Sequence record: NC_028831.1
Reading direction: 5' to 3' (one strand)
Origin: Escherichia phage slur01
Length of the DNA stretch: 61,235 nucleotides
The position numbers and the translations under genes were made by a program. The notes under the pieces are model-generated. The model was not told where the DNA came from, ran no database searches, and saw only the letters and a program-made list of their open reading frames with translations. Below are positions 1 to 61,235 of the stretch, one piece after another (positions within the stretch are counted from its first letter, which is position 1; the number at the start of each line of letters is the position of its first letter).

Positions 1-127
1 CACAGGCATCCCAGGCTGCACGTCCGGACAACCTATAACCACACCATCGCAGGAACCGCCAAAGTGTCCGCCAGCTTCGCTGATACGGAACTGGTGTCCA
101 TTTTCGTCCTGCTGATAGACCTGCATA
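1..127. repeat. 127-bp terminal direct repeat, identical to 61109..61235 (circular permutation or assembly overlap)
   Basis: Bases 1..127 match the last 127 bases of the window exactly; a minus-strand ORF reads through the junction. Confidence 0.9.
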
Positions 128-15749: not shown

Positions 15750-15989
15750 ATGCGTTTAAAGTATAAGCAAAAGATTGTAGAATACTTCGGGATGCAACTT
15801 GTTGTCCCTGAATGGGTTAAATGGCTTGCTGTCGATGGTGATGGGGAGCTGTACGGTTACGAATGCGAGCCTGATATCTTAGTTGATGAACCGTGGGACG
15901 AATGGTACACAGAAGAAGGTAAATGTTACCGCATTACAGAAGTAGTTCTTGAAGAACATTGGTCTGAAACCTTAGTGGAGCTTTTCTAA
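15750..15989 (+). CDS. hypothetical protein, small paralog family member
   Basis: Shares W-x-AVDGDG...Y-x-x-x-P and W...TL motifs with 16333..16629 and 55631..55885. Confidence 0.55.
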   Translation: MRLKYKQKIVEYFGMQLVVPEWVKWLAVDGDGELYGYECEPDILVDEPWDEWYTEEGKCYRITEVVLEEHWSETLVELF

Positions 15990-15990
15990 A

Positions 15991-16281
15991 ATGCACATAG
16001 AAGAGATTGTTGAAGGCAAAGAGTATCGTTTACTGACCGATATTGGTGGTGTTGGGTATACTCCGGATGATGCGGCTTGTTTTAACGTCCTTCCGCAAGG
16101 TGCTATCGTGACAGTTAACAAGGTCGTTACCGATTTATACAGTGTTCATGACGGCAGATGGCCACATGCAGTTATTGTCACCTTCGGTAAAGATGGTTAT
16201 GTGGACCTTGATGGCGAAGACGATACTTACGAAGTTGCGTATACAGGTCTGGTAAGTCCCAATTTCCTGGAAGAAGTATAA
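15991..16281 (+). CDS. hypothetical protein
   Basis: 96-aa ORF, tightly packed with neighbours. Confidence 0.5.
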   Translation: MHIEEIVEGKEYRLLTDIGGVGYTPDDAACFNVLPQGAIVTVNKVVTDLYSVHDGRWPHAVIVTFGKDGYVDLDGEDDTYEVAYTGLVSPNFLEEV

Positions 16282-16332
16282 TTATCAATCTATAATGGGC
16301 TCTACGGAGCCCTTAATTATCTGGAGGCTGTT

Positions 16333-16629
16333 ATGCTGTATTTAGGAATGGACGAAACTGGACACGCGATCCCTTCTGTTAACAAGGAGACGCAAGTATT
16401 TACAGACTATTACGGGTCTGCTATCCCTGTAGAGCCCTGGGCAAACTTTATTGCTGTAGACGCAGACGGTAAAGTTCATTGTTATGACGCCAAACCTTCT
16501 TGCTATGAATCTGGTAAGCAATGGATGCTTGGCGTATACGGTTTGCATGTCCGCTACTGCGGCGAAGTTGACATTGAAGGTGTGGACTGGCGCGATACGT
16601 TGAAGGAGATTAAAGATGTCCGCGGCTGA
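16333..16629 (+). CDS. hypothetical protein, small paralog family member
   Basis: ANFIAVDADGKVHCYDAKP...DWRDTLKEI matches the family motif. Confidence 0.55.
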   Translation: MLYLGMDETGHAIPSVNKETQVFTDYYGSAIPVEPWANFIAVDADGKVHCYDAKPSCYESGKQWMLGVYGLHVRYCGEVDIEGVDWRDTLKEIKDVRG

Positions 16630-17619: not shown

Positions 17620-18012
17620 ATGCTATTAGTCGTCACCGGAGGTCGAAATTTTAAGCATGTGGAGTATATTTATGCTCAATTGGATAAGCTGCATATGCAA
17701 AGAAGGATAACCACACTTCGCCACGGTGACGCTGACGGTGTTGACCGCATTTGTGCACAGTGGGCAGAGCGCAACGGTATTAAGACAGAAGCGTTCCCTG
17801 CCCCGTGGGACAATCTTTCCTTACCAAATACCAAGATACGGTATAACGCCAAGGGTGCTTATAATGCACAAGCTGGCGCATACCGTAACCAATTAATGCT
17901 GGATACTGATCCTAAACCAGATCACGCTATTGTGTTTCCTGGCGGAGCTGGTACTATGGATATGTACAGACGGATTAAAGCATCCGGTATCCATTACACA
18001 TTAGCGGAGTAA
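17620..18012 (+). CDS. SLOG/DUF2493-like Rossmann-fold protein
   Basis: Motif series VVTGGRNF, HGDADGVDR, WAERNGI, VFPGGAGTMDM resembles YpsA/DprA-LOG (SLOG) superfamily proteins. Confidence 0.45.
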   Translation: MLLVVTGGRNFKHVEYIYAQLDKLHMQRRITTLRHGDADGVDRICAQWAERNGIKTEAFPAPWDNLSLPNTKIRYNAKGAYNAQAGAYRNQLMLDTDPKPDHAIVFPGGAGTMDMYRRIKASGIHYTLAE

Positions 18013-19161: not shown

Positions 19162-19622
19162 CCACAATTGCGTTTGATGGAAAAGTATTAGCTGCGGACC
19201 GTGGAGTTATGCGCGGGGAAGCTGTGACTGCTTATAAGAAAGTTCATAGCGTGAATGGACATCGTGGACGGTTTTTACTGGGCTTGTGCGGCCTTACAGC
19301 ATTTACCGATCAGGTGTTGCGTTATTTTAATAGCGCGGAACCTGTTAAGTTCCCTGATATTAAACTTTACAGCAAAGATGATGATTACGGGCAAACTTGC
19401 GGTCTTGCTGTCACTCCGGAAGGTACTTGCCATTTTATTTATAATGATGGTACTTTGAGCGAGCCCATGCTGGATGGATGGGGGTCTGAGGGTAGCGGTT
19501 GTGTGTTTGCTGCTGGCGCGTTAGCTGCTGGTGCAAGTGCGAGCGAAGCTATTGAGTTGGCAATTAAACACACCACATGCGCATTCCTGGGAGTTGATAC
19601 AATATCATTTGAGGGTTTTTAA
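19158..19622 (+). CDS. HslV/proteasome-like Ntn-hydrolase peptidase homolog
   Basis: Starts MTTIAFDGKVLAADRGV (Thr directly after Met, as in HslV TTIV...); GWGSEGSGCVFAAGALAAG parallels the HslV GSGG segment. Confidence 0.5.
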   Translation: MTTIAFDGKVLAADRGVMRGEAVTAYKKVHSVNGHRGRFLLGLCGLTAFTDQVLRYFNSAEPVKFPDIKLYSKDDDYGQTCGLAVTPEGTCHFIYNDGTLSEPMLDGWGSEGSGCVFAAGALAAGASASEAIELAIKHTTCAFLGVDTISFEGF

Positions 19623-19623
19623 A

Positions 19624-20115
19624 ATGGAATGGTCTTCCATATTCACTTATTTGGATGGAAAGCTGTTCTGGAAAACTTCTAGAGGTGGTAGAGTTATACC
19701 AGGAGCACTTGCTGGTCATGCTACAAAGAGGGGTTACGTCAAAATACGATGCGGTTGTAGTTTCTATCTAAGGCATCGTATAGTATGGGAAATGCATAAT
19801 GGTTCCATTCCCGAAAATATGCAAATAGATCATATTAATCACGTTCCTGGAGATGATAGGATAGAGAATCTTAGATTAGTTACAAGTACATTAAATAATA
19901 GGAACGTAACCAGATCTAAGCTTAATAAGTCTGGTGTTACTGGTGTTTGCTATCACAAAAGAAATAAAAGATGGATAGCTTATATTAATACACAGGTCGG
20001 TCAAGTAAGACTTGGCTCTTTTATTAATTTTGAAGATGCTGTCAATGCTCGTAAAAATGCTGAGATTGTATATGAATACCACGAGAATCATGGAACTGAA
20101 CGTAAGAGTTTTTGA
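19624..20115 (+). CDS. HNH homing endonuclease with C-terminal AP2 domain
   Basis: HNH core HRIVWEMHNG...IDHINHVPGDDRIENL followed by AP2 segment SGVTGVCYHKRNKRWIAYI...GSFINFEDAVNARKNAE; start re-picked at ATG with GAGGG RBS. Confidence 0.75.
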   Translation: MEWSSIFTYLDGKLFWKTSRGGRVIPGALAGHATKRGYVKIRCGCSFYLRHRIVWEMHNGSIPENMQIDHINHVPGDDRIENLRLVTSTLNNRNVTRSKLNKSGVTGVCYHKRNKRWIAYINTQVGQVRLGSFINFEDAVNARKNAEIVYEYHENHGTERKSF

Positions 20116-54527: not shown

Positions 54528-55235
54528 TCAAGCTTTGCTGATAAATTCGCTATAGCCTTTAGCGCGAAGTTTACACGCCGGGCATTCCCCGCAACCGTAT
54601 CCCCAGTCATGCAGAGTGCGACGGACGCCATTATAGCACGTATGGGACTGCTCAATTACTGTGGTTAAGAAACCAACCTTATCCGCCAGCTCAAACGTTT
54701 CTGCTTTATTTAAACGCATAAGCGGAGTAACAAAATGGATATCTGTTTCATATCCAACGTTTAATGTAGCTTCAAGAAGGTCTACAAACTGCTGACGGCA
54801 ATCCGGATAACCGCTATAGTCCGTTTCACAAACGCCCGTAACCACATATCGGGCTCCAACCTTCTGCGCGTAGGCGTGCGCGGTAGTCAGGAAAAGAGCA
54901 TTACGGTTGGGCACAAAGCTTGCCGGAAGGTTGTTGTGCTGTTCGTGATGTTCGTTAACATCACCTTCGTTCCCGATTAAAGCACTATTGCCGATCTGTT
55001 TCAAAGCAGGTAATTCAAAGACAACAAACGGGACATTGTGCTCTTTACAAATTTGATTAGCACAAGCCAGCTCAATGTTATGACGTTGACCGTATGCAAA
55101 ACCAATAGCGTACACCTTATCATAGTTATTAAGCGCAAGACCCAAACAGGTCACGCTGTCCTGGCCGCCAGACAGGACGACAACGGCGGAGTTATGATTT
55201 TTTACAGGGAATACCAGTTTATCTAATTTATTCAT
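54528..55235 (-). CDS. queC: 7-cyano-7-deazaguanine synthase
   Basis: PP-loop VLSGGQDS and C-terminal Zn motif CGECPAC; 235 aa with no amidotransferase fusion. Confidence 0.9.
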   Translation of the reverse strand: MNKLDKLVFPVKNHNSAVVVLSGGQDSVTCLGLALNNYDKVYAIGFAYGQRHNIELACANQICKEHNVPFVVFELPALKQIGNSALIGNEGDVNEHHEQHNNLPASFVPNRNALFLTTAHAYAQKVGARYVVTGVCETDYSGYPDCRQQFVDLLEATLNVGYETDIHFVTPLMRLNKAETFELADKVGFLTTVIEQSHTCYNGVRRTLHDWGYGCGECPACKLRAKGYSEFISKA

Positions 55236-55236
55236 T

Positions 55237-55425
55237 TTAGAAACCTTTAAGGCTAATATTAAGGTTAATGACTACTTGTTCAACTACAGCTTCAGAGGTT
55301 ACCTGACGCTGGTGTATCTCAAGCTCCGTATGTATTTTCTTGGATGCAGCACGACAAATAGCGTCATTCAACTCGTCTTGTAAACGTTGAATTTTCTGCA
55401 TAAGGATTACAGTTTCTTCATTCAT
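55237..55425 (-). CDS. hypothetical small protein in the que cluster
   Basis: 62-aa ORF between queC and queE. Confidence 0.4.
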   Translation of the reverse strand: MNEETVILMQKIQRLQDELNDAICRAASKKIHTELEIHQRQVTSEAVVEQVVINLNISLKGF

Positions 55426-55630
55426 TTACTTCACCTTTAATATCACAAGGGTTGATTGTTACGTTAGACATTACAATTGGATGATTGCGCGCTCCAATTG
55501 TGCTAACGTGATTAATATCTAATTCTACATGCACGCCCTGCATAGTAGCGTGAGCAATTGAAGAATTAAGTTTTTCTACCAGCTCAGTAATCATTTCCTG
55601 ATGCTGTTTCGCTTCTTCCAAAGTGATCAT
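55418..55630 (-). CDS. hypothetical small protein in the que cluster
   Basis: 70-aa ORF; shares a loose pattern (hydrophobic-H-x-EL-x-I-x-H...V-x-x-N-x-x-I) with 55237..55425. Confidence 0.4.
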   Translation of the reverse strand: MITLEEAKQHQEMITELVEKLNSSIAHATMQGVHVELDINHVSTIGARNHPIVMSNVTINPCDIKGEVNE

Positions 55631-55885
55631 TTAAACCTCCGTTAATGTTTGAGTCCAGTCTAAGCCTTCAAGATCTACATCAGCTATTTCATCGTACTCG
55701 TAAGCTTCCGGATCTGCTGGCAACCATCTATCAAAGCGATGGCTAAGTTCTGGAGGAATTGCTTCATACCCCCAAACCTTCCCATCCTTGTCGGCTGCCA
55801 GATAATCAACTCGACTTGGAACGGTTAAAGTGACACCACAAAAATTAACATCTTTAGTATGCACAACCTGGCTTAACACACGCAT
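55631..55885 (-). CDS. hypothetical protein, small paralog family member
   Basis: YLAADKDGKVWGYEAIPPE...DLEGLDWTQTL matches the family at 15750..15989 and 16333..16629. Confidence 0.5.
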   Translation of the reverse strand: MRVLSQVVHTKDVNFCGVTLTVPSRVDYLAADKDGKVWGYEAIPPELSHRFDRWLPADPEAYEYDEIADVDLEGLDWTQTLTEV

Positions 55886-56592
55886 TATTCCACTCCGATA
55901 TATTTGTGAACCTGAAGCTGCAACGTGTAACCGTGTTTCATACAGCTTTGGACAACGGCTTGGATATTACTGTGGTTAAGGTCTTCATCCTGCTCGTCCA
56001 TTGGCTGTAAATATATCTTACCCTTGAAACCCTTCGGAGGTCTAGCGATAAATGGCGTAGCTTGATGATCTAATGCCTGAAGCGGCAAACCATCTTCCAC
56101 GTTTACACAGCACGCTTTAAGTACATATTTAAATGCATTAGCGCGGCGCAGCACAGAAGGATGAATCTTTGAGGTCTTGGGACTACATACAATTACAGGT
56201 AACTGGGAAAAGTTCTTAGGTAAAGGCATAGACCCATTAGTTTCAATTTGCACCAAATACCCGCGCGATAACAGTTGTTCAATAAACGGGTTAATTTGCT
56301 GACGGAACGGTTCACCCCCAGTGATAACCACAAGTGAGGTGCTATTACCTGATTCCAGCTTACGGCTTTCGATTAAACGCATAATATCGACAATATGATA
56401 AAGACTACGACCAACAGTATAATCCGTATCACAGCCAGGACATTGCAGGTTGCACCCAGCAAGACGCACAAATACAGCAGGTTGTCCGCAGAATGGACCT
56501 TCACCCTGAATGGTAGAGAATACCGAATGCACGTCTAAATACATATCGTTTTCTTTAGAACGAGACTCGGGAGCTTGTTGATTAATATTCAT
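55885..56592 (-). CDS. queE: 7-carboxy-7-deazaguanine synthase (radical SAM)
   Basis: Radical-SAM cluster motif CNLQCPGC; 235 aa; coupled to the downstream gene. Confidence 0.85.
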   Translation of the reverse strand: MNINQQAPESRSKENDMYLDVHSVFSTIQGEGPFCGQPAVFVRLAGCNLQCPGCDTDYTVGRSLYHIVDIMRLIESRKLESGNSTSLVVITGGEPFRQQINPFIEQLLSRGYLVQIETNGSMPLPKNFSQLPVIVCSPKTSKIHPSVLRRANAFKYVLKACCVNVEDGLPLQALDHQATPFIARPPKGFKGKIYLQPMDEQDEDLNHSNIQAVVQSCMKHGYTLQLQVHKYIGVE

Positions 56593-56661: not shown

Positions 56662-57465
56662 TTACAAGCCGTTCAGGGCTTCCGGTACTGGCATAGGTAC
56701 GCGACCAGTTACACCATTAAACTTCTTCCAACGTGCATACTGAGTTTTAACGGTATCTTCGTTCAGACCGTGGCGACCAGCCAGATTCAGAACATAAGAG
56801 ATCGGAGCAGGCTGACCCAGCGTAGCGCTAATCTGATCCATCAGAGCCCAGGCACGACCGCAGGAAGTTTCAGGTTGTGGACGACGAACACCATTCTGTT
56901 CAGGCATACGGTTCGCTTCTTTCGCTTTTTCACGTTCAGCTTTTTCGCGGGCTTTTTCAGCAGCCTTTTCAGCCTGTTTAGCAGCGCGGATCTTGTCTTT
57001 GAAGCCTTTGATAAACGAATCCAGTTCGTCAACCATGCTCTGAGCAGCACTTACTGCACCGGACAGATCTTCATCTTTGGATTTTTTAACAACTGCTTTC
57101 AGCTCTTTCAGTTTATTCTTAAAAAGCTTCAGCTGTTCAGAACCCTGAAATTCAGCTACCGTAATCTCTTCAATAGTGCCTTTATCGGCAACATCGGATA
57201 AAACAGACCTCACGGTTTCAACTCCGCGGGAAAGAGCGGTAAATTTATTTTCCGCTACAGCACGAATTTCAGCTTGTTTCTTTTCAGCGGCAGCTTTTTT
57301 CTCTGCTTCTTTTTTCTCTTTTGCTACGCGTGCAGCTTCAGCGGCAGCGGCTTTTTTAGCTTCTGCATCGTTAGCAGTAACTTCTTTCTTTGCAGGCTTA
57401 GCAGATTTTGCAGCGGCAGCAGCGGCTGCGGCAGCAGCGGCTTTCTTATCTTCAATATTACTCAT
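56662..57465 (-). CDS. Ala/Lys-rich histone-H1-like protein with a globular C-terminal domain
   Basis: N-terminal AAAAAAAAAAKSAKPAKK and AEKKAAAEKK repeats; start re-picked at ATG with GGAG RBS. Confidence 0.55.
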   Translation of the reverse strand: MSNIEDKKAAAAAAAAAAAKSAKPAKKEVTANDAEAKKAAAAEAARVAKEKKEAEKKAAAEKKQAEIRAVAENKFTALSRGVETVRSVLSDVADKGTIEEITVAEFQGSEQLKLFKNKLKELKAVVKKSKDEDLSGAVSAAQSMVDELDSFIKGFKDKIRAAKQAEKAAEKAREKAEREKAKEANRMPEQNGVRRPQPETSCGRAWALMDQISATLGQPAPISYVLNLAGRHGLNEDTVKTQYARWKKFNGVTGRVPMPVPEALNGL

Positions 57466-57592
57466 TTTCTTCACTCCGAATTATTATGGGTTCGTTTGTT
57501 ACCAACGGGGTTAAATGTACCAAAGGATTTTGTGACACGCAACCACTTACATAAACATTTTTAAAAATATTTTTGATCAGGGTTAGAACTTA

Positions 57593-58146: not shown

Positions 58147-60123
58147 TTAGAAAGGAACGTAATCCGGATCGTCTACTTGCACAGGGTTAACCACATTGTT
58201 CACCGTTATACCTTGCGTATTCTGCGAAACAATATCGTCCCAACTTACATCATCGTTATAGCTCGGACCTTCTGTTGTTCCATCCTGACCGTATACTTTA
58301 ACCTGAATAGCTTCGTCGTCCTGTGGAGCTTCAAACTTACCGAAACAAGTACCGTCATAATCATAGTTCAATATCTCAGGCCATTTCTTATTGGTATGAA
58401 CTTTGATGTATTTTGGTGTTTTAAGCATTGCAGCAACATCAAGAGCTTCTTCAATAGTTTGTGGTAAAGGTAAATGTGTCCTTTTCTTCCACCATGCGAC
58501 AGCTTTACGACCTGCCCAGTCCCCATGAAGCAGAGCTACCCATTCACTGAATATTTTACTACCGCAATAATAAGTCACCTTCATTGTTGGAGGTTTAGAG
58601 CTGTCATTGCGTTTAGTATGCTTTGCATAAGTAACATGCGTAACTTTGAAGTCTTCAACTACTGGAATATCCTGCTTGATCAGGGCTTCCGTACTTGCAG
58701 CTTTCTTGAGTTTGGTCTGGAACTTAAACTCATGACCGCAAAAGCCTTCTTTAACGTAATCCGTCCCGCGTAGCCTAAATCCTTTCAGATATAATTGTTG
58801 AACTTGTTCCTGTGTGACGCTGTCCATTGGGATTGGTGCGAAGCCACCGCAATAGCGAGCGGATGCATGATTATACGACCCACATACATCGCATTCTTTA
58901 ACCGGAGCAGTGCCAGCACCTTTTTCGCCCGGGCGCTTGGGTTTAACAGGGTCGTTAATAGGGCCCAAACGGCGCGTATTACCGCTGAAATCCAGTACAA
59001 GGCAGTTCTGCTTGGGGCTTGCCGCAATAGCTTGTAAGCGTCCCTCCTGCGTGGAAAGATCAAAGCCCTCCGCGTACACCGGACGCGTACCGCGACCCAG
59101 CATCTGAACCCATAGCACCGCCGACGCAGTGGGACGGAGCATGATAATTAAGTCCAGCATTGGATGATCAAAACCTGTGGTTAAGACGTTATTGTTAGTT
59201 AATGCTCGAAATTCACCGCGCTTGAATTTTTCAATAATCTCGTCACGTTCTTTTGCATCAAGCTTAGAGTGAATACATCCACAGCTAATACCCATATCGT
59301 TCAGCATATCGCACGCGTCTTTAGCGTGTTCAATGCCAGAACAAAATATAAGCCAGCTTTGACGGTCTTCACCACATTCAATTGCTTCCTCAAGTGCGCG
59401 GAGTGTTGCGTCATCGCGGTTTACCGCACTTTGCAGCTCACTCTGAATAAATTCACCGCCGCGTTTACCTACCCCGTTGAGGTCTAGTTCCATCTTAGTA
59501 CGCTTTGGCACAACCGGAAGAAGATAACCTTGTTCCAGAAACCAGTTGAAGGCTTCCGGAGTAGTTGCATCAAACGTTACCTTATCAAATAACGCATCAT
59601 CGTCTTCGTTTTCCTTAACAATTGAACCATACCCCAGTCGATAAGGTGTAGCAGTAAGACCGATGATTTTTAAGTAAGGGTTAACTTCACGCAACGCTGC
59701 AAAGAACTTCTTATACATTGTTGCATCACGCGGACTAATAAGATGCGCTTCGTCCACAAAAATAAGATCAACTTTGCCGAACTTTTTCGGATGCTTAGCA
59801 ACGGACGCAATTCCTGCAAAGGTAATAAGATTGTAGACTTCTTTACGCTTCAAACCCGCGCTGTAAATACCTGCTGGCGCTTCGGGCCAGACTTTCATTA
59901 ATTTATCATAGTTTTGTGCAATTAACTCTTTGACGTGAGTTAACATCATTACGCGCTGGTTTGGATACCATTTGTAAAGCAGATCGAGGAACCCCGCGAT
60001 AACGAGCGATTTTCCTGTCCCTGTTGGTAACAGGATCAAAGGGTTCCCCGCGTTACCCTTTTCAGCATCAAAATAGCGGAATACGCTATAAACTGCTTCC
60101 TGTTGATAATCTCTTAATTTCAT
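58147..60123 (-). CDS. Superfamily-2 DEAH-box DNA helicase with C-terminal extension
   Basis: Walker A LLPTGTGKS, DEAH box FVDEAHLIS, motif III GLTATPYR, motif VI QMLGRGTR; about 250 extra C-terminal residues with Cys cluster CDVCGSYNHASARYCGG. Confidence 0.85.
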   Translation of the reverse strand: MKLRDYQQEAVYSVFRYFDAEKGNAGNPLILLPTGTGKSLVIAGFLDLLYKWYPNQRVMMLTHVKELIAQNYDKLMKVWPEAPAGIYSAGLKRKEVYNLITFAGIASVAKHPKKFGKVDLIFVDEAHLISPRDATMYKKFFAALREVNPYLKIIGLTATPYRLGYGSIVKENEDDDALFDKVTFDATTPEAFNWFLEQGYLLPVVPKRTKMELDLNGVGKRGGEFIQSELQSAVNRDDATLRALEEAIECGEDRQSWLIFCSGIEHAKDACDMLNDMGISCGCIHSKLDAKERDEIIEKFKRGEFRALTNNNVLTTGFDHPMLDLIIMLRPTASAVLWVQMLGRGTRPVYAEGFDLSTQEGRLQAIAASPKQNCLVLDFSGNTRRLGPINDPVKPKRPGEKGAGTAPVKECDVCGSYNHASARYCGGFAPIPMDSVTQEQVQQLYLKGFRLRGTDYVKEGFCGHEFKFQTKLKKAASTEALIKQDIPVVEDFKVTHVTYAKHTKRNDSSKPPTMKVTYYCGSKIFSEWVALLHGDWAGRKAVAWWKKRTHLPLPQTIEEALDVAAMLKTPKYIKVHTNKKWPEILNYDYDGTCFGKFEAPQDDEAIQVKVYGQDGTTEGPSYNDDVSWDDIVSQNTQGITVNNVVNPVQVDDPDYVPF

Positions 60124-60626
60124 AAAGGTCTCACTGTTCCATGATTCTTGTTAAACCCGTATGTAATTTCAGCCTCTTTTCTTGTCTTTATTGCGTCTTG
60201 TAGACTTTCAAAATAACCAAGATGCAGCCGAATACCGTATACATCAATTTGAGCTTTCCATTTCTTATTTGCCTTAGCCCATGTCACTCCAGGACAACCG
60301 CTCTTATTATTCGATGGTAGTTTTCTATTATGGTTGTTATGGTATTTATTACTTTTATTTAGATTAGTTTTCCAATTATGCGTACCATCACCATCATCAT
60401 GATCAATATATTCAGGTTCTTCATCATAGAGCATTTTCCAGATTATACGGTGTGCGTAATAATTAAGACCGTTCATAAAAACCATAATATAGGTTTTACC
60501 ATGATTAAAAGTAACTTCACTCCCTGCAATTTGACCGTTATGGTTCCAAAATAAGTTACCGCTATCTTCGCTATAGCTAAAAATCCTATTGAGTTCTTCT
60601 TGCGTCGGTAACGGCAACCTTTTCAT
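60120..60626 (-). CDS. HNH homing endonuclease with C-terminal AP2 domain
   Basis: HNH segment HRIIWKMLYDEEP...IDHDDGDGTHNW and AP2 segment SGCPGVTWAKANKKWKAQIDVYGIRLHLGYFESLQDA; start at ATG (track uses a TTG at 60632). Confidence 0.7.
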   Translation of the reverse strand: MKRLPLPTQEELNRIFSYSEDSGNLFWNHNGQIAGSEVTFNHGKTYIMVFMNGLNYYAHRIIWKMLYDEEPEYIDHDDGDGTHNWKTNLNKSNKYHNNHNRKLPSNNKSGCPGVTWAKANKKWKAQIDVYGIRLHLGYFESLQDAIKTRKEAEITYGFNKNHGTVRPL

Positions 60627-60628
60627 AA

Positions 60629-61235
60629 TCAATCTTTCCCGTAATAATTAGCTACTTGATAGTTTTGACAACCAACTTTCTGTCCTTGCGTATCCACTGC
60701 GGCGGAATGGAAATTGCAATACCATGTTCCATCTTCTTTTGGTTCAAGGAATTGACATGTGCGGCAGTTTACTTCCGGCATAGTTTTACGCCAGCATAGT
60801 GAGGAGTGATCGCACCATTTACATTCGAAGAAAGTGGAATCTTTAAATGCGCGGTCCGGAATATCTGTAGCAATAGCAATCTGCACACCACGATCAATAT
60901 ACATGTCCGCGGTAACAGGATCAAACGGAATAATTTCTGCGTAAACTTCATCGTCATTCTTGTTTACAGCAAGATATAACGCTGCGCCAAGACCTAGTTT
61001 TCGCATGTACACGTTCATCTGTACATAGTGCTCAGGTTTGGCTTCTTTAACACCTTTAGCTTTCAGCTTTTTAAAAGACTTATCGTTATGCGTCTTCATT
61101 TCGGTGAGCACAGGCATCCCAGGCTGCACGTCCGGACAACCTATAACCACACCATCGCAGGAACCGCCAAAGTGTCCGCCAGCTTCGCTGATACGGAACT
61201 GGTGTCCATTTTCGTCCTGCTGATAGACCTGCATA
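60629..61235 (-). CDS. 3' part of the YqaJ/lambda-Exo-like PD-(D/E)xK exonuclease (5' part at 1..429 across the junction)
   Basis: In frame with the 1..429 segment through the terminal repeat; C-terminal Cys cluster CKWC...CWRK...CRTC; total about 302 aa. Confidence 0.7.
   Translation of the reverse strand, partial: MQVYQQDENGHQFRISEAGGHFGGSCDGVVIGCPDVQPGMPVLTEMKTHNDKSFKKLKAKGVKEAKPEHYVQMNVYMRKLGLGAALYLAVNKNDDEVYAEIIPFDPVTADMYIDRGVQIAIATDIPDRAFKDSTFFECKWCDHSSLCWRKTMPEVNCRTCQFLEPKEDGTWYCNFHSAAVDTQGQKVGCQNYQVANYYGKD
61109..61235. repeat. 127-bp terminal direct repeat, identical to 1..127
   Basis: Exact identity with the first 127 bases of the window. Confidence 0.9.

What the first reader, a model, noticed from the sequence alone, without database searches (positions are those of the whole stretch)
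15750..16629. Three-member paralogous family of small proteins split between the early block and the que cluster
ORFs 15750..15989, 16333..16629 and 55631..55885 share the pattern W-x-A-V/A-D-x-DG-x-x-x-x-Y-E...P...W...(D/E)...W-x-x-TL at similar spacing. One copy is embedded in the deazaguanine operon right beside queE. Paralog expansion of a small acidic protein in a phage often marks an anti-defence or host-takeover function.
Basis: seen in the sequence. Interest (0 to 1): 0.5.

Follow-up and report, generated by a model that had tools for sequence, protein, structure and literature searches.

The report
Three paralogous small acidic phage proteins
Three small acidic genes in this Seurat-like coliphage are true paralogues of a widespread, phage-only protein domain of unknown function, and the copy inside the DNA-modification operon is a lineage-specific insertion, not part of that pathway.

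Summary
ORFs A (15750..15989), B (16333..16629) and C (55631..55885, minus strand) are homologous: BLASTP E is 1e-8 to 1e-11, shuffle z is 10-15, and all three hit PHROG 1972 at E<=1e-21. A family HMM finds no fourth copy. The window is a complete Seuratvirus genome.

All three are acidic (pI 4.2-4.7) and under purifying selection (dN/dS 0.02-0.13). They are predicted to be a compact all-beta domain (pLDDT 88 and 93). That model has no Pfam or NCBIfam match and no significant PDB fold match.

The family is large (about 1,300 cluster representatives) and almost confined to phages. It recurs as paralogue arrays and as fusions of up to 8 repeats.

C overlaps the queE stop codon (TAATG). However, other deazaguanine phages have queE directly next to queC, with no family member nearby. 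C-type genes also occupy the A slot in a related phage, and very different alleles replace each other exactly at the C ORF.

So C is an exchangeable accessory cassette, not a pathway component. An anti-defence or host-takeover role is plausible but untested. A weak AcrIC9 lead failed the fold test.

This is a modest lead in an uncharacterised but already catalogued family.

The parts
15750..15989 (+). Paralogue A, 79 aa, pI 4.2. It occupies the variable 'A slot' of the small-gene block. Its start lies 1 nt after the stop of the upstream ORF, and its stop lies 1 nt before the next ATG.
   Evidence: ORF. PHROG 1972 at E=1.3e-21. Equals Seurat gp73 at 98.7%. dN/dS is 0.13 against the SHIN8 allele. 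Relatives at >=76% identity occur in only 8 phage records; other alleles, or no family member, occupy the slot elsewhere.
16333..16629 (+). Paralogue B, 98 aa, pI 4.7. It carries an extra conserved N-terminal segment (MLYLGMD...) that is predicted to add one beta-strand.
   Evidence: ORF. PHROG 1972 at E=7e-28. Equals Seurat gp75. Relatives at >=77% identity occur in about 30 phage records. dN/dS is 0.02-0.13. AF2 model has pLDDT 93.1, with the same strand order as C plus strand 2-5.
55631..55885 (-). Paralogue C, 84 aa, pI 4.3. It is inserted between queE and queC, and its start overlaps the queE stop (TAATG).
   Evidence: ORF. PHROG 1972 at E=1.3e-22. Junction sequence. AF2 model has pLDDT 87.8 and is all-beta. 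dN/dS is 0.04-0.13. The same position is occupied in Seuratvirus and Nonagvirus.
55688..55750 (-). Codons 46-66 of C. This is the hypervariable central segment of the domain, lying between the invariant P45 and the conserved V70-D-L-E-G-x-D-W-x-x-T-L tail, with the invariant W54 inside it.
   Evidence: Column entropies are 3.4-4.0 bits, with indels, across 119 family members.
55885..56592 (-). queE (7-carboxy-7-deazaguanine synthase), immediately upstream of C in the operon.
   Evidence: ORF. 100% protein identity to Seurat QueE. Annotation in relatives.
54528..55235 (-). queC. It is separated from queE by C and two further small ORFs (55418..55630 and 55237..55425).
   Evidence: ORFs. Annotation in relatives. 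In four other deazaguanine phage lineages queE abuts queC directly.
15991..16281 (+). Unrelated 96-aa ORF (PHROG 27099) lying between A and B.
   Evidence: No match to the family HMM.
16297..16312 (+). GC-rich hairpin (GGGCTC-TACG-GAGCCC) followed by a T-rich tail. It lies just upstream of the Shine-Dalgarno sequence of B (GGAGG, 16323..16327).
   Evidence: Terminator-like site in the scan. Sequence.

Best explanation
A, B and C are three diverged paralogues of one compact, acidic, all-beta domain of about 75 residues (PHROG 1972). This domain is a phage-restricted accessory module of unknown biochemical function.

Shown:
- The three are homologous and are real genes under purifying selection.
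- The domain has a conserved hydrophobic and turn scaffold: Y/F-F-G, V-P, A-x-D-x-D/N-G hairpin, Y, P, W, and V-D-L-E-G-x-D-W-x-x-T-L.
- A hypervariable segment of about 20 residues lies within that scaffold.
- No conserved residues look catalytic.
- The family duplicates readily, giving paralogue arrays and fusions of 2 to 8 repeats in other phages.
- In Queuovirinae it occupies a few fixed 'slots', and members of different clades are exchanged between slots by recombination.
- C is a lineage-specific insertion into the ancestral queE-queC junction of the enterobacterial Queuovirinae (Seuratvirus, Nonagvirus). It overlaps the queE stop codon and is not a component of the deazaguanine pathway.

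Inferred:
- C is co-expressed with queE by translational coupling through the TAATG overlap.
- The proteins act non-enzymatically as binding modules, and their specificity lies in the variable segment.
- The different paralogues most likely bind different host targets during lytic infection, for anti-defence or host takeover.
For: Homology and copy number.

The window is a complete Seuratvirus genome.

Real genes: dN/dS is 0.02-0.13 in unsaturated comparisons. B and C have Shine-Dalgarno sequences, and the ORFs are packed with 1-nt spacers or overlaps.

Fold:
- The C and B models are confident and share one strand order.
- 26 BFVD matches at E<=1e-3, all uncharacterised phage proteins, with TM up to 0.88.
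- No Pfam or NCBIfam family.

Family size and architecture:
- 1366 cluster representatives at E<=1e-3.
- Multi-repeat proteins sit on phage-sized contigs among small unknown genes.
- At least 10 domain-bearing genes occur in 14 kb of L009, and 4 consecutive genes in a T4-like Bragavirus.

Conserved scaffold and hypervariable residues 46-66.

Cassette exchange:
- Window versus Greed is 95-100% identical across queE..queC, except inside the C ORF, where identity is about 40-50%.
- A C-clade gene (64% aa identity, 71% nt identity to C) sits in the A slot of a related phage.
- The A slot is occupied by other alleles in RCIP0359 and holds no family member in OddieOddie.

C is not part of the pathway:
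- queE abuts queC directly in Nipunavirus, in the Queuovirinae Vibrio phage vB_VhaS-tm, and in the unclassified phages S0112 and MiCath.
- Vid5 has only an unrelated 63-aa ORF between queE and gat-queC.
- No HMM hit lies within 3 kb of queE in these five phages or in Ec1-ASingh.

Phage restriction.

Acidity.
Against: No experiment and no homologue of known function bears on the mechanism. 'Binding module directed at host targets' is inferred from general features only.

Points that fit a conserved phage-internal role at least as well:
- Purifying selection is strong.
- B is close to a core gene in Seuratvirus.

The allele classes differ at saturated dS. The diversity therefore reflects old lineages being shuffled, not demonstrated fast positive selection.

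The family is absent from conjugative plasmids, where many anti-restriction genes are shared.

The small-gene block has not been shown to be early. The promoter scan was uninformative.

Two contigs carry frameshifted C (P0028, P0029). This may mean C is dispensable, or it may be assembly error.
Confidence: 0.5

Rival explanations
1. The proteins serve a phage-internal housekeeping role. They would bind a phage protein or phage DNA during replication, modification, transcription or assembly, rather than a host target.
For: dN/dS is low. B is conserved in nearly all Seuratviruses. In several phages, family members lie inside replication or nucleotide-metabolism modules. Examples are directly downstream of DNA primase in Pseudomonas phage Cygsa01, between the primase and dCTPase genes in the Bragavirus, downstream of the primase/helicase gene in the Klebsiella phage K70PH128C1, and in the que operon here.
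Against: Copy number and slot occupancy vary among near-identical phages. A is missing or replaced in many of them, and C alleles only about 50% identical sit in flanks that are 97% identical. A partner that co-evolves inside the same genome would not tolerate such swaps. Other members sit in plain arrays of small unknown genes.
Confidence: 0.25
2. The proteins are DNA-mimic inhibitors of restriction or CRISPR effectors, in the manner of Ocr, ArdA, Arn or AcrIC9. Their acidic surface would occupy the DNA-binding site of a host nuclease.
For: All three are strongly acidic, and the family median pI is 4.6. A family profile gives a marginal hit to AcrIC9 (E=0.19, 15 bits). AcrIC9 is a small acidic Cascade binder (PMC10478522).
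Confidence: 0.1
3. C is an accessory subunit or regulator of the deazaguanine pathway, for example a QueE partner. A and B would be diverged copies with other roles.
For: C overlaps the queE stop codon. A family member holds this position in every Seuratvirus and Nonagvirus genome examined.
Against: Deazaguanine phages of other lineages have queE next to queC, with no family member nearby. C alleles differ by 50% while QueE is 99.6% identical. A C-clade gene sits outside the que operon in a related phage. The family is common in phages whose copies are not next to que genes.
Confidence: 0.05
4. The similarity is chance, or the ORFs are not genes.
For: None beyond their small size.
Against: Shuffle z is 10-15. 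All three hit the same PHROG at E<=1e-21. dN/dS is far below 1. The structure models are confident.
Confidence: 0.01

Closest known systems
PHROG 1972 (phage orthologous group, function unknown)
   Same: All three proteins match it over nearly their full length at E=1e-21 to 7e-28. It is the catalogued family they belong to.
   Different: The PHROG carries no function, name or structure. Its profile is 160 positions long, about twice the single domain, which suggests it was built partly from two-domain members.
AcrIC9 (anti-CRISPR, PDB 8HJJ / 8G9T)
   Same: It is a small (about 70-80 aa), highly acidic phage protein. There is a marginal profile match over the N-terminal half (E=0.19).
   Different: The match is not significant. 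AcrIC9 is alpha/beta (three strands, three helices; PMC10478522), whereas the models here are all-beta. There is no fold match. It is not a member.
Small acidic DNA-mimic anti-restriction proteins (T7 Ocr, ArdA, T4 Arn). Comparison from general knowledge.
   Same: Small size, strong negative charge, phage accessory genes.
   Different: No sequence or fold similarity was found in the PDB. Whether the charges mimic DNA could not be examined.
Small accessory genes embedded in T4 early and middle nucleotide-metabolism operons, and T4 inhibitors that accompany DNA hypermodification (IPI*, Arn). Comparison from general knowledge.
   Same: A small non-enzymatic gene sits among DNA-modification or replication genes. 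A T4-like Bragavirus carries four family members between the primase and dCTPase genes.
   Different: No homology to those T4 proteins has been shown. No target is known.
Polyvalent or tandem-domain conflict proteins of phages (Iyer et al. 2017 concept). Comparison from general knowledge.
   Same: The domain is fused head-to-tail 2-8 times in single proteins at the head of small-gene operons.
   Different: Here the repeats are copies of one domain, not assortments of different enzymatic or anti-defence domains.
Pfam DUF5111 (UniRef's automatic name for Seurat gp73)
   Same: Paralogue A gives a weak hit (E=0.018, 15.3 bits).
   Different: The hit is far below the gathering score of 31.9, and B and C give none. 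The automatic name is not supported.

Membership tests
PHROG 1972 | Significant full-length match to the family profile | tested here: met
   E=1.3e-21 (A), 7.3e-28 (B) and 1.3e-22 (C). It is the best hit for each by more than 14 orders of magnitude.
AcrIC9 anti-CRISPR family | Significant sequence similarity to AcrIC9 | tested here: not met
   Profile against PDB sequences gives E=0.19 and 15 bits, over profile positions 17-60 only.
AcrIC9 anti-CRISPR family | beta1-beta2-alpha1-beta3-alpha2-alpha3 fold | tested here: not met
AcrIC9 anti-CRISPR family | Binds type I-C Cascade (Cas7) and blocks DNA binding | not testable with these tools
   Needs biochemistry.
Pfam DUF5111 (PF17138) | Score at or above the gathering threshold (31.9 bits) | tested here: not met
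   A scores 15.3 bits. B and C give no hit.
Phage 7-deazaguanine (dPreQ0) modification module | Homology to a pathway protein (FolE, QueD, QueE, QueC, DpdA, YhhQ) | tested here: not met
   No Pfam, NCBIfam or PDB sequence match.
Phage 7-deazaguanine (dPreQ0) modification module | Conserved presence next to queE/queC across deazaguanine phages | tested here: not met
   A family member is present there in Seuratvirus and Nonagvirus. None is present in Vid5, Quinobequin-P09, S0112, vB_VhaS-tm, MiCath or Ec1-ASingh. In four of these six, queE abuts queC directly.
Phage 7-deazaguanine (dPreQ0) modification module | Required for the dPreQ0 content of virion DNA | not testable with these tools
   Needs a deletion mutant and LC-MS/MS.
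DNA-mimic anti-restriction proteins (Ocr/ArdA/Arn type) | Small, strongly acidic protein | tested here: met
   pI 4.2-4.7 and net charge -7 to -12.
DNA-mimic anti-restriction proteins (Ocr/ArdA/Arn type) | Sequence or fold relationship to a known mimic | tested here: not met
DNA-mimic anti-restriction proteins (Ocr/ArdA/Arn type) | Surface carboxylates arranged like the phosphates of B-DNA, and inhibition of a nuclease | not testable with these tools

The most novel reading that the evidence does not exclude
The domain is a phage-only, hypervariable-loop binding scaffold used as a family of interchangeable counter-defence cassettes. Each paralogue or allele would neutralise a different host immunity protein. 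Phages would shuffle the cassettes between fixed genomic slots and concatenate them into polyvalent arrays of 2-8 repeats. The queE-coupled slot in enterobacterial Queuovirinae could then carry an inhibitor timed with DNA modification. One example would be an inhibitor of a modification-dependent (type IV-like) nuclease that senses deazaguanine DNA, analogous to T4 IPI* or Arn.
Probability: 0.15. Interest if true: 0.7.

Novelty: new member of a known kind. Interest (0 to 1): 0.3.

Why it matters
The family has about 1,300 cluster representatives. It recurs in Seuratvirus, Nonagvirus, Webervirus, Wifcevirus, T4-like, N4-like and jumbo phages. It has no Pfam or NCBIfam entry, no solved structure and no annotation anywhere.

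The Queuovirinae offer a convenient natural experiment. Near-isogenic phages, several of them in the public BASEL collection, differ almost only in which allele fills the A and C slots. Differences in host range or defence sensitivity could therefore be mapped to single cassettes.

The work also corrects a tempting inference. A gene embedded in the deazaguanine operon is not necessarily part of that pathway.

Tried and rejected
Function by homology:
- Pfam, NCBIfam and PDB sequence searches gave nothing significant.
- The afdb50 fold library was unavailable.

The AcrIC9 lead was rejected on statistics and on fold.

Fusion partners as functional clues:
- N-terminal regions and extensions of 22 longer family proteins have no Pfam domain.
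- Two giant 'hits' are probably additive weak matches rather than members. They are P0038, an MBG_2 repeat protein, and P0032, a PKD-containing protein.

Names from sources: two large homology searches returned only unnamed or hypothetical proteins. Cluster look-up returned no names.

Literature: no paper mentions PHROG 1972. The Seuratvirus, deazaguanine and BASEL papers treat these genes as unknown. A Queuovirinae plus anti-defence search gave nothing relevant, and a search for CAjan plus early genes gave noise.

The search for related loci in viral contigs returned only one locus.

The promoter scan did not establish early expression.

GC content of the three genes is unremarkable.

Full report
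**What the window is.** The region matches Escherichia phage Seurat and about 30 other Seuratvirus genomes at 92-98% nucleotide identity. The first 127 nt equal the last 127 nt. The window is therefore a complete, circularly assembled genome of 61,108 bp from a member of the Queuovirinae. In its relative CAjan, roughly a third of the G residues are replaced by dPreQ0 (PMC6884629). Genes for replication and modification lie on the minus strand (about 47-61 kb and 1-13 kb). A block of small ORFs lies on the plus strand (about 14-21 kb) and runs into the packaging and structural genes.

**Checking the observation.**
- Pairwise BLASTP gives E=2e-8 (A/B), 1e-8 (B/C) and 1e-11 (A/C).
- Smith-Waterman scores lie 10-15 standard deviations above 2000 shuffles, and no shuffle reaches them.
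- All three hit the same family, PHROG 1972, at E=1e-21 to 7e-28.
- HMMs built from the three, or from 119 family members, find exactly these three in the six-frame translation.
The first W is present only in A, and Y-E is Y-D in B.
- The proteins are acidic, with pI 4.2-4.7 and net charge -7 to -12.
- The C start codon shares base 55885 with the queE stop codon (TAATG). A GGAG sits 7 nt upstream of the C start.

**Are they genes?** Comparisons with orthologous alleles whose synonymous sites are not saturated give the following dN/dS values:
- A: 0.13
- B: 0.02-0.13
- C: 0.04-0.13

B has a GGAGG Shine-Dalgarno sequence behind a GC-rich hairpin. A is packed between its neighbours with 1-nt spacers. 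They are real protein-coding genes under purifying selection.

**The protein.**
- AlphaFold2 models of C (pLDDT 87.8) and B (pLDDT 93.1) give the same compact all-beta domain. B has one extra N-terminal strand.
- Foldseek against viral models finds 26 matches at E<=1e-3, all uncharacterised phage proteins. They come from jumbo, T4-like, N4-like and other phages.
- Pfam and NCBIfam give nothing. The 'DUF5111' label that UniRef attaches to Seurat gp73 rests on a sub-threshold hit.
- Across 119 members the conserved positions are hydrophobic, aromatic or turn residues: Y/F-F-G, V-P, A-x-D-x-D/N-G, Y, P45, W54, and V-D-L-E-G-x-D-W-x-x-T-L.
- Residues 46-66 are highly variable and carry indels.
- No position looks catalytic.

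**The family at large.**
- An exhaustive profile search finds 1366 cluster representatives at E<=1e-3 and 182 at E<=1e-10.
- Most are proteins of about 80 aa. Many are two-domain proteins. A few carry 5-8 repeats, such as P0035 and P0031.
- The multi-repeat proteins sit on phage-sized contigs of about 62 kb, at the head of runs of small unknown genes.
- One such contig has at least 10 domain-bearing genes in 14 kb. A T4-like Bragavirus has four in a row between the primase and dCTPase genes.
- In Carvajevirus, Wifcevirus, a 47.5-kb Klebsiella phage and a Pseudomonas phage, the gene again lies among small hypothetical genes.
- C has no match in 72,556 plasmids. A second member finds three weak hits in non-mobilisable replicons. 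The A-B DNA has no match in 5,426 complete E. coli genomes.
- No source names any member.
- Two giant 'hits', an MBG_2 protein and a PKD-containing protein, are probably additive noise.

**The copy in the que operon.** A family member follows queE in every Seuratvirus and Nonagvirus genome examined. Four observations argue against a pathway role.
1. In Nipunavirus Quinobequin-P09, Shewanella phage S0112, Vibrio phage vB_VhaS-tm and Pseudomonas phage MiCath, queE is directly followed by queC or gat-queC. Pantoea phage Vid5 has only an unrelated 63-aa ORF there. The family HMM finds nothing within 3 kb of queE in these five phages or in Ec1-ASingh. The queE-queC junction is therefore the likely ancestral state, and C is an insertion.
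2. The window and phage Greed are 95-100% identical across queE..queC, except exactly within the C ORF. There identity drops to about 40-50% after the first 40 nt or so. Yet their QueE proteins are 99.6% identical. A partner of QueE would not be expected to change by 50% while QueE stays fixed.
3. The window's C is closer to a Nonagvirus allele (54%) than to the Greed allele (49%). The Greed allele is about as close to A (45%).
4. A gene of the C clade sits not at queE but in the A slot of a diverged Queuovirinae contig. It has the same MRVLSQ.VHTK N-terminus and is 64% identical to C in protein and 71% in nucleotides. That contig is syntenic with window 12.4-19.2 kb, and the gene is followed by a B-type gene.

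The A slot itself holds several alleles (77% and 47% identity), or no family member, in other Seuratviruses. B is present in about 30 records.

The family therefore occupies a few slots, and its members are exchanged among them. The allele classes differ at saturated dS. This is shuffling of old lineages, not demonstrated rapid evolution in place.

**Mechanism.** No homologue of known function exists, so the mechanism is inferred. The features are: a small, stable, non-catalytic beta scaffold; a hypervariable segment; strong acidity; restriction to (mostly virulent) phages; ready duplication and concatenation; and cassette exchange among near-identical phages. Together these fit a binding module whose variants recognise different partners. 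The most likely partners are host proteins met during lytic infection, which would mean anti-defence or takeover. I give this about 0.35-0.4.

The descriptive conclusions are much firmer: the paralogy is real, the family is phage-restricted, and C is an insertion rather than a pathway gene. The main rival is a phage-internal role. It is supported by purifying selection, by the near-core status of B, and by frequent placement inside replication modules. A DNA-mimic mechanism is a narrower version of the first idea. Its only specific lead, a marginal AcrIC9 match (E=0.19), fails because AcrIC9 is an alpha/beta fold and is not recovered by fold search.

**Novelty and verdict.** The genes are already catalogued (PHROG 1972) and annotated as hypothetical in all relatives. 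The papers found say nothing about them. The paralogy within Seuratvirus, the slot-swapping and the family-wide expansion appear not to have been described, but they do not reveal a new kind of system. This is a new, uncharacterised member set of a known (catalogued) kind. Interest is about 0.3.

Noticed in passing
window 55418..55630 (-) and 55237..55425 (-): The two small ORFs between C and queC (70 and 62 aa; PHROG 26258 and 24420) are weakly similar to each other (BLASTP E=6e-5). They form a second mini-paralogue pair inside the que operon. Their GC content (37.6%) is below the genome's 44.4%. One related contig (L019) has only one of them. PHROG 26258 is labelled 'radical SAM domain-containing protein', which looks like an annotation carried over from the neighbouring queE.
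   Followed up: partly
window 19531..20115 (+) and 60120..60632 (-): Another paralogue pair: 35% identity over 164 aa, E=3e-20. The first has a Pfam HNH_3 endonuclease domain (E=1.8e-19). They are likely homing-endonuclease-type insertions. One lies in the plus-strand small-gene block and one lies next to the helicase gene.
   Followed up: partly
window 1..127 and 61109..61235: The first 127 nt are identical to the last 127 nt. This is an assembler overlap of a circular or terminally redundant genome, so the unique genome length is 61,108 bp.
   Followed up: yes
window 17620..18012 (+): A 130-aa protein with a Pfam YAcAr (YspA/cpYpsA-related SLOG) domain, E=3.5e-18. This is a predicted nucleotide-binding domain in the small-gene block. 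It is conserved in the related contig L021.
   Followed up: no
window 56662..57474 (-): A 270-aa Ala/Lys/Glu-rich protein with an 11-residue poly-Ala run, just upstream of queE. Relatives annotate it variously as 'plectin 1' or 'transcriptional activator FtrA domain'. It matches PHROG 11298 (unknown function) and no Pfam family.
   Followed up: no
L010 8001..12418 and L009 5102..6415 (metagenomic phage contigs of about 62 kb): These are proteins made of 8, 8 and 5 tandem copies of the same domain, placed at the head of operons of small unknown genes. L009 carries at least 10 domain-bearing genes in 14 kb.
   Followed up: partly
P0028 and P0029 (contigs of 24.9 and 60.6 kb), corresponding to window 55631..55885: Two contigs encode a C variant that is frameshifted after about codon 38, running into the alternative frame seen at window 55684..55809. 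This is either natural loss of C or assembly error.
   Followed up: no
L011 (Shigella phage vB_SdyM_006) 1870..3773: Four consecutive genes carry the domain. Three are about 190 aa, with the domain at the C-terminus behind an unknown N-terminal region (weak, sub-threshold MIB_HERC2-like hits). The domain is therefore also used as a C-terminal module.
   Followed up: partly
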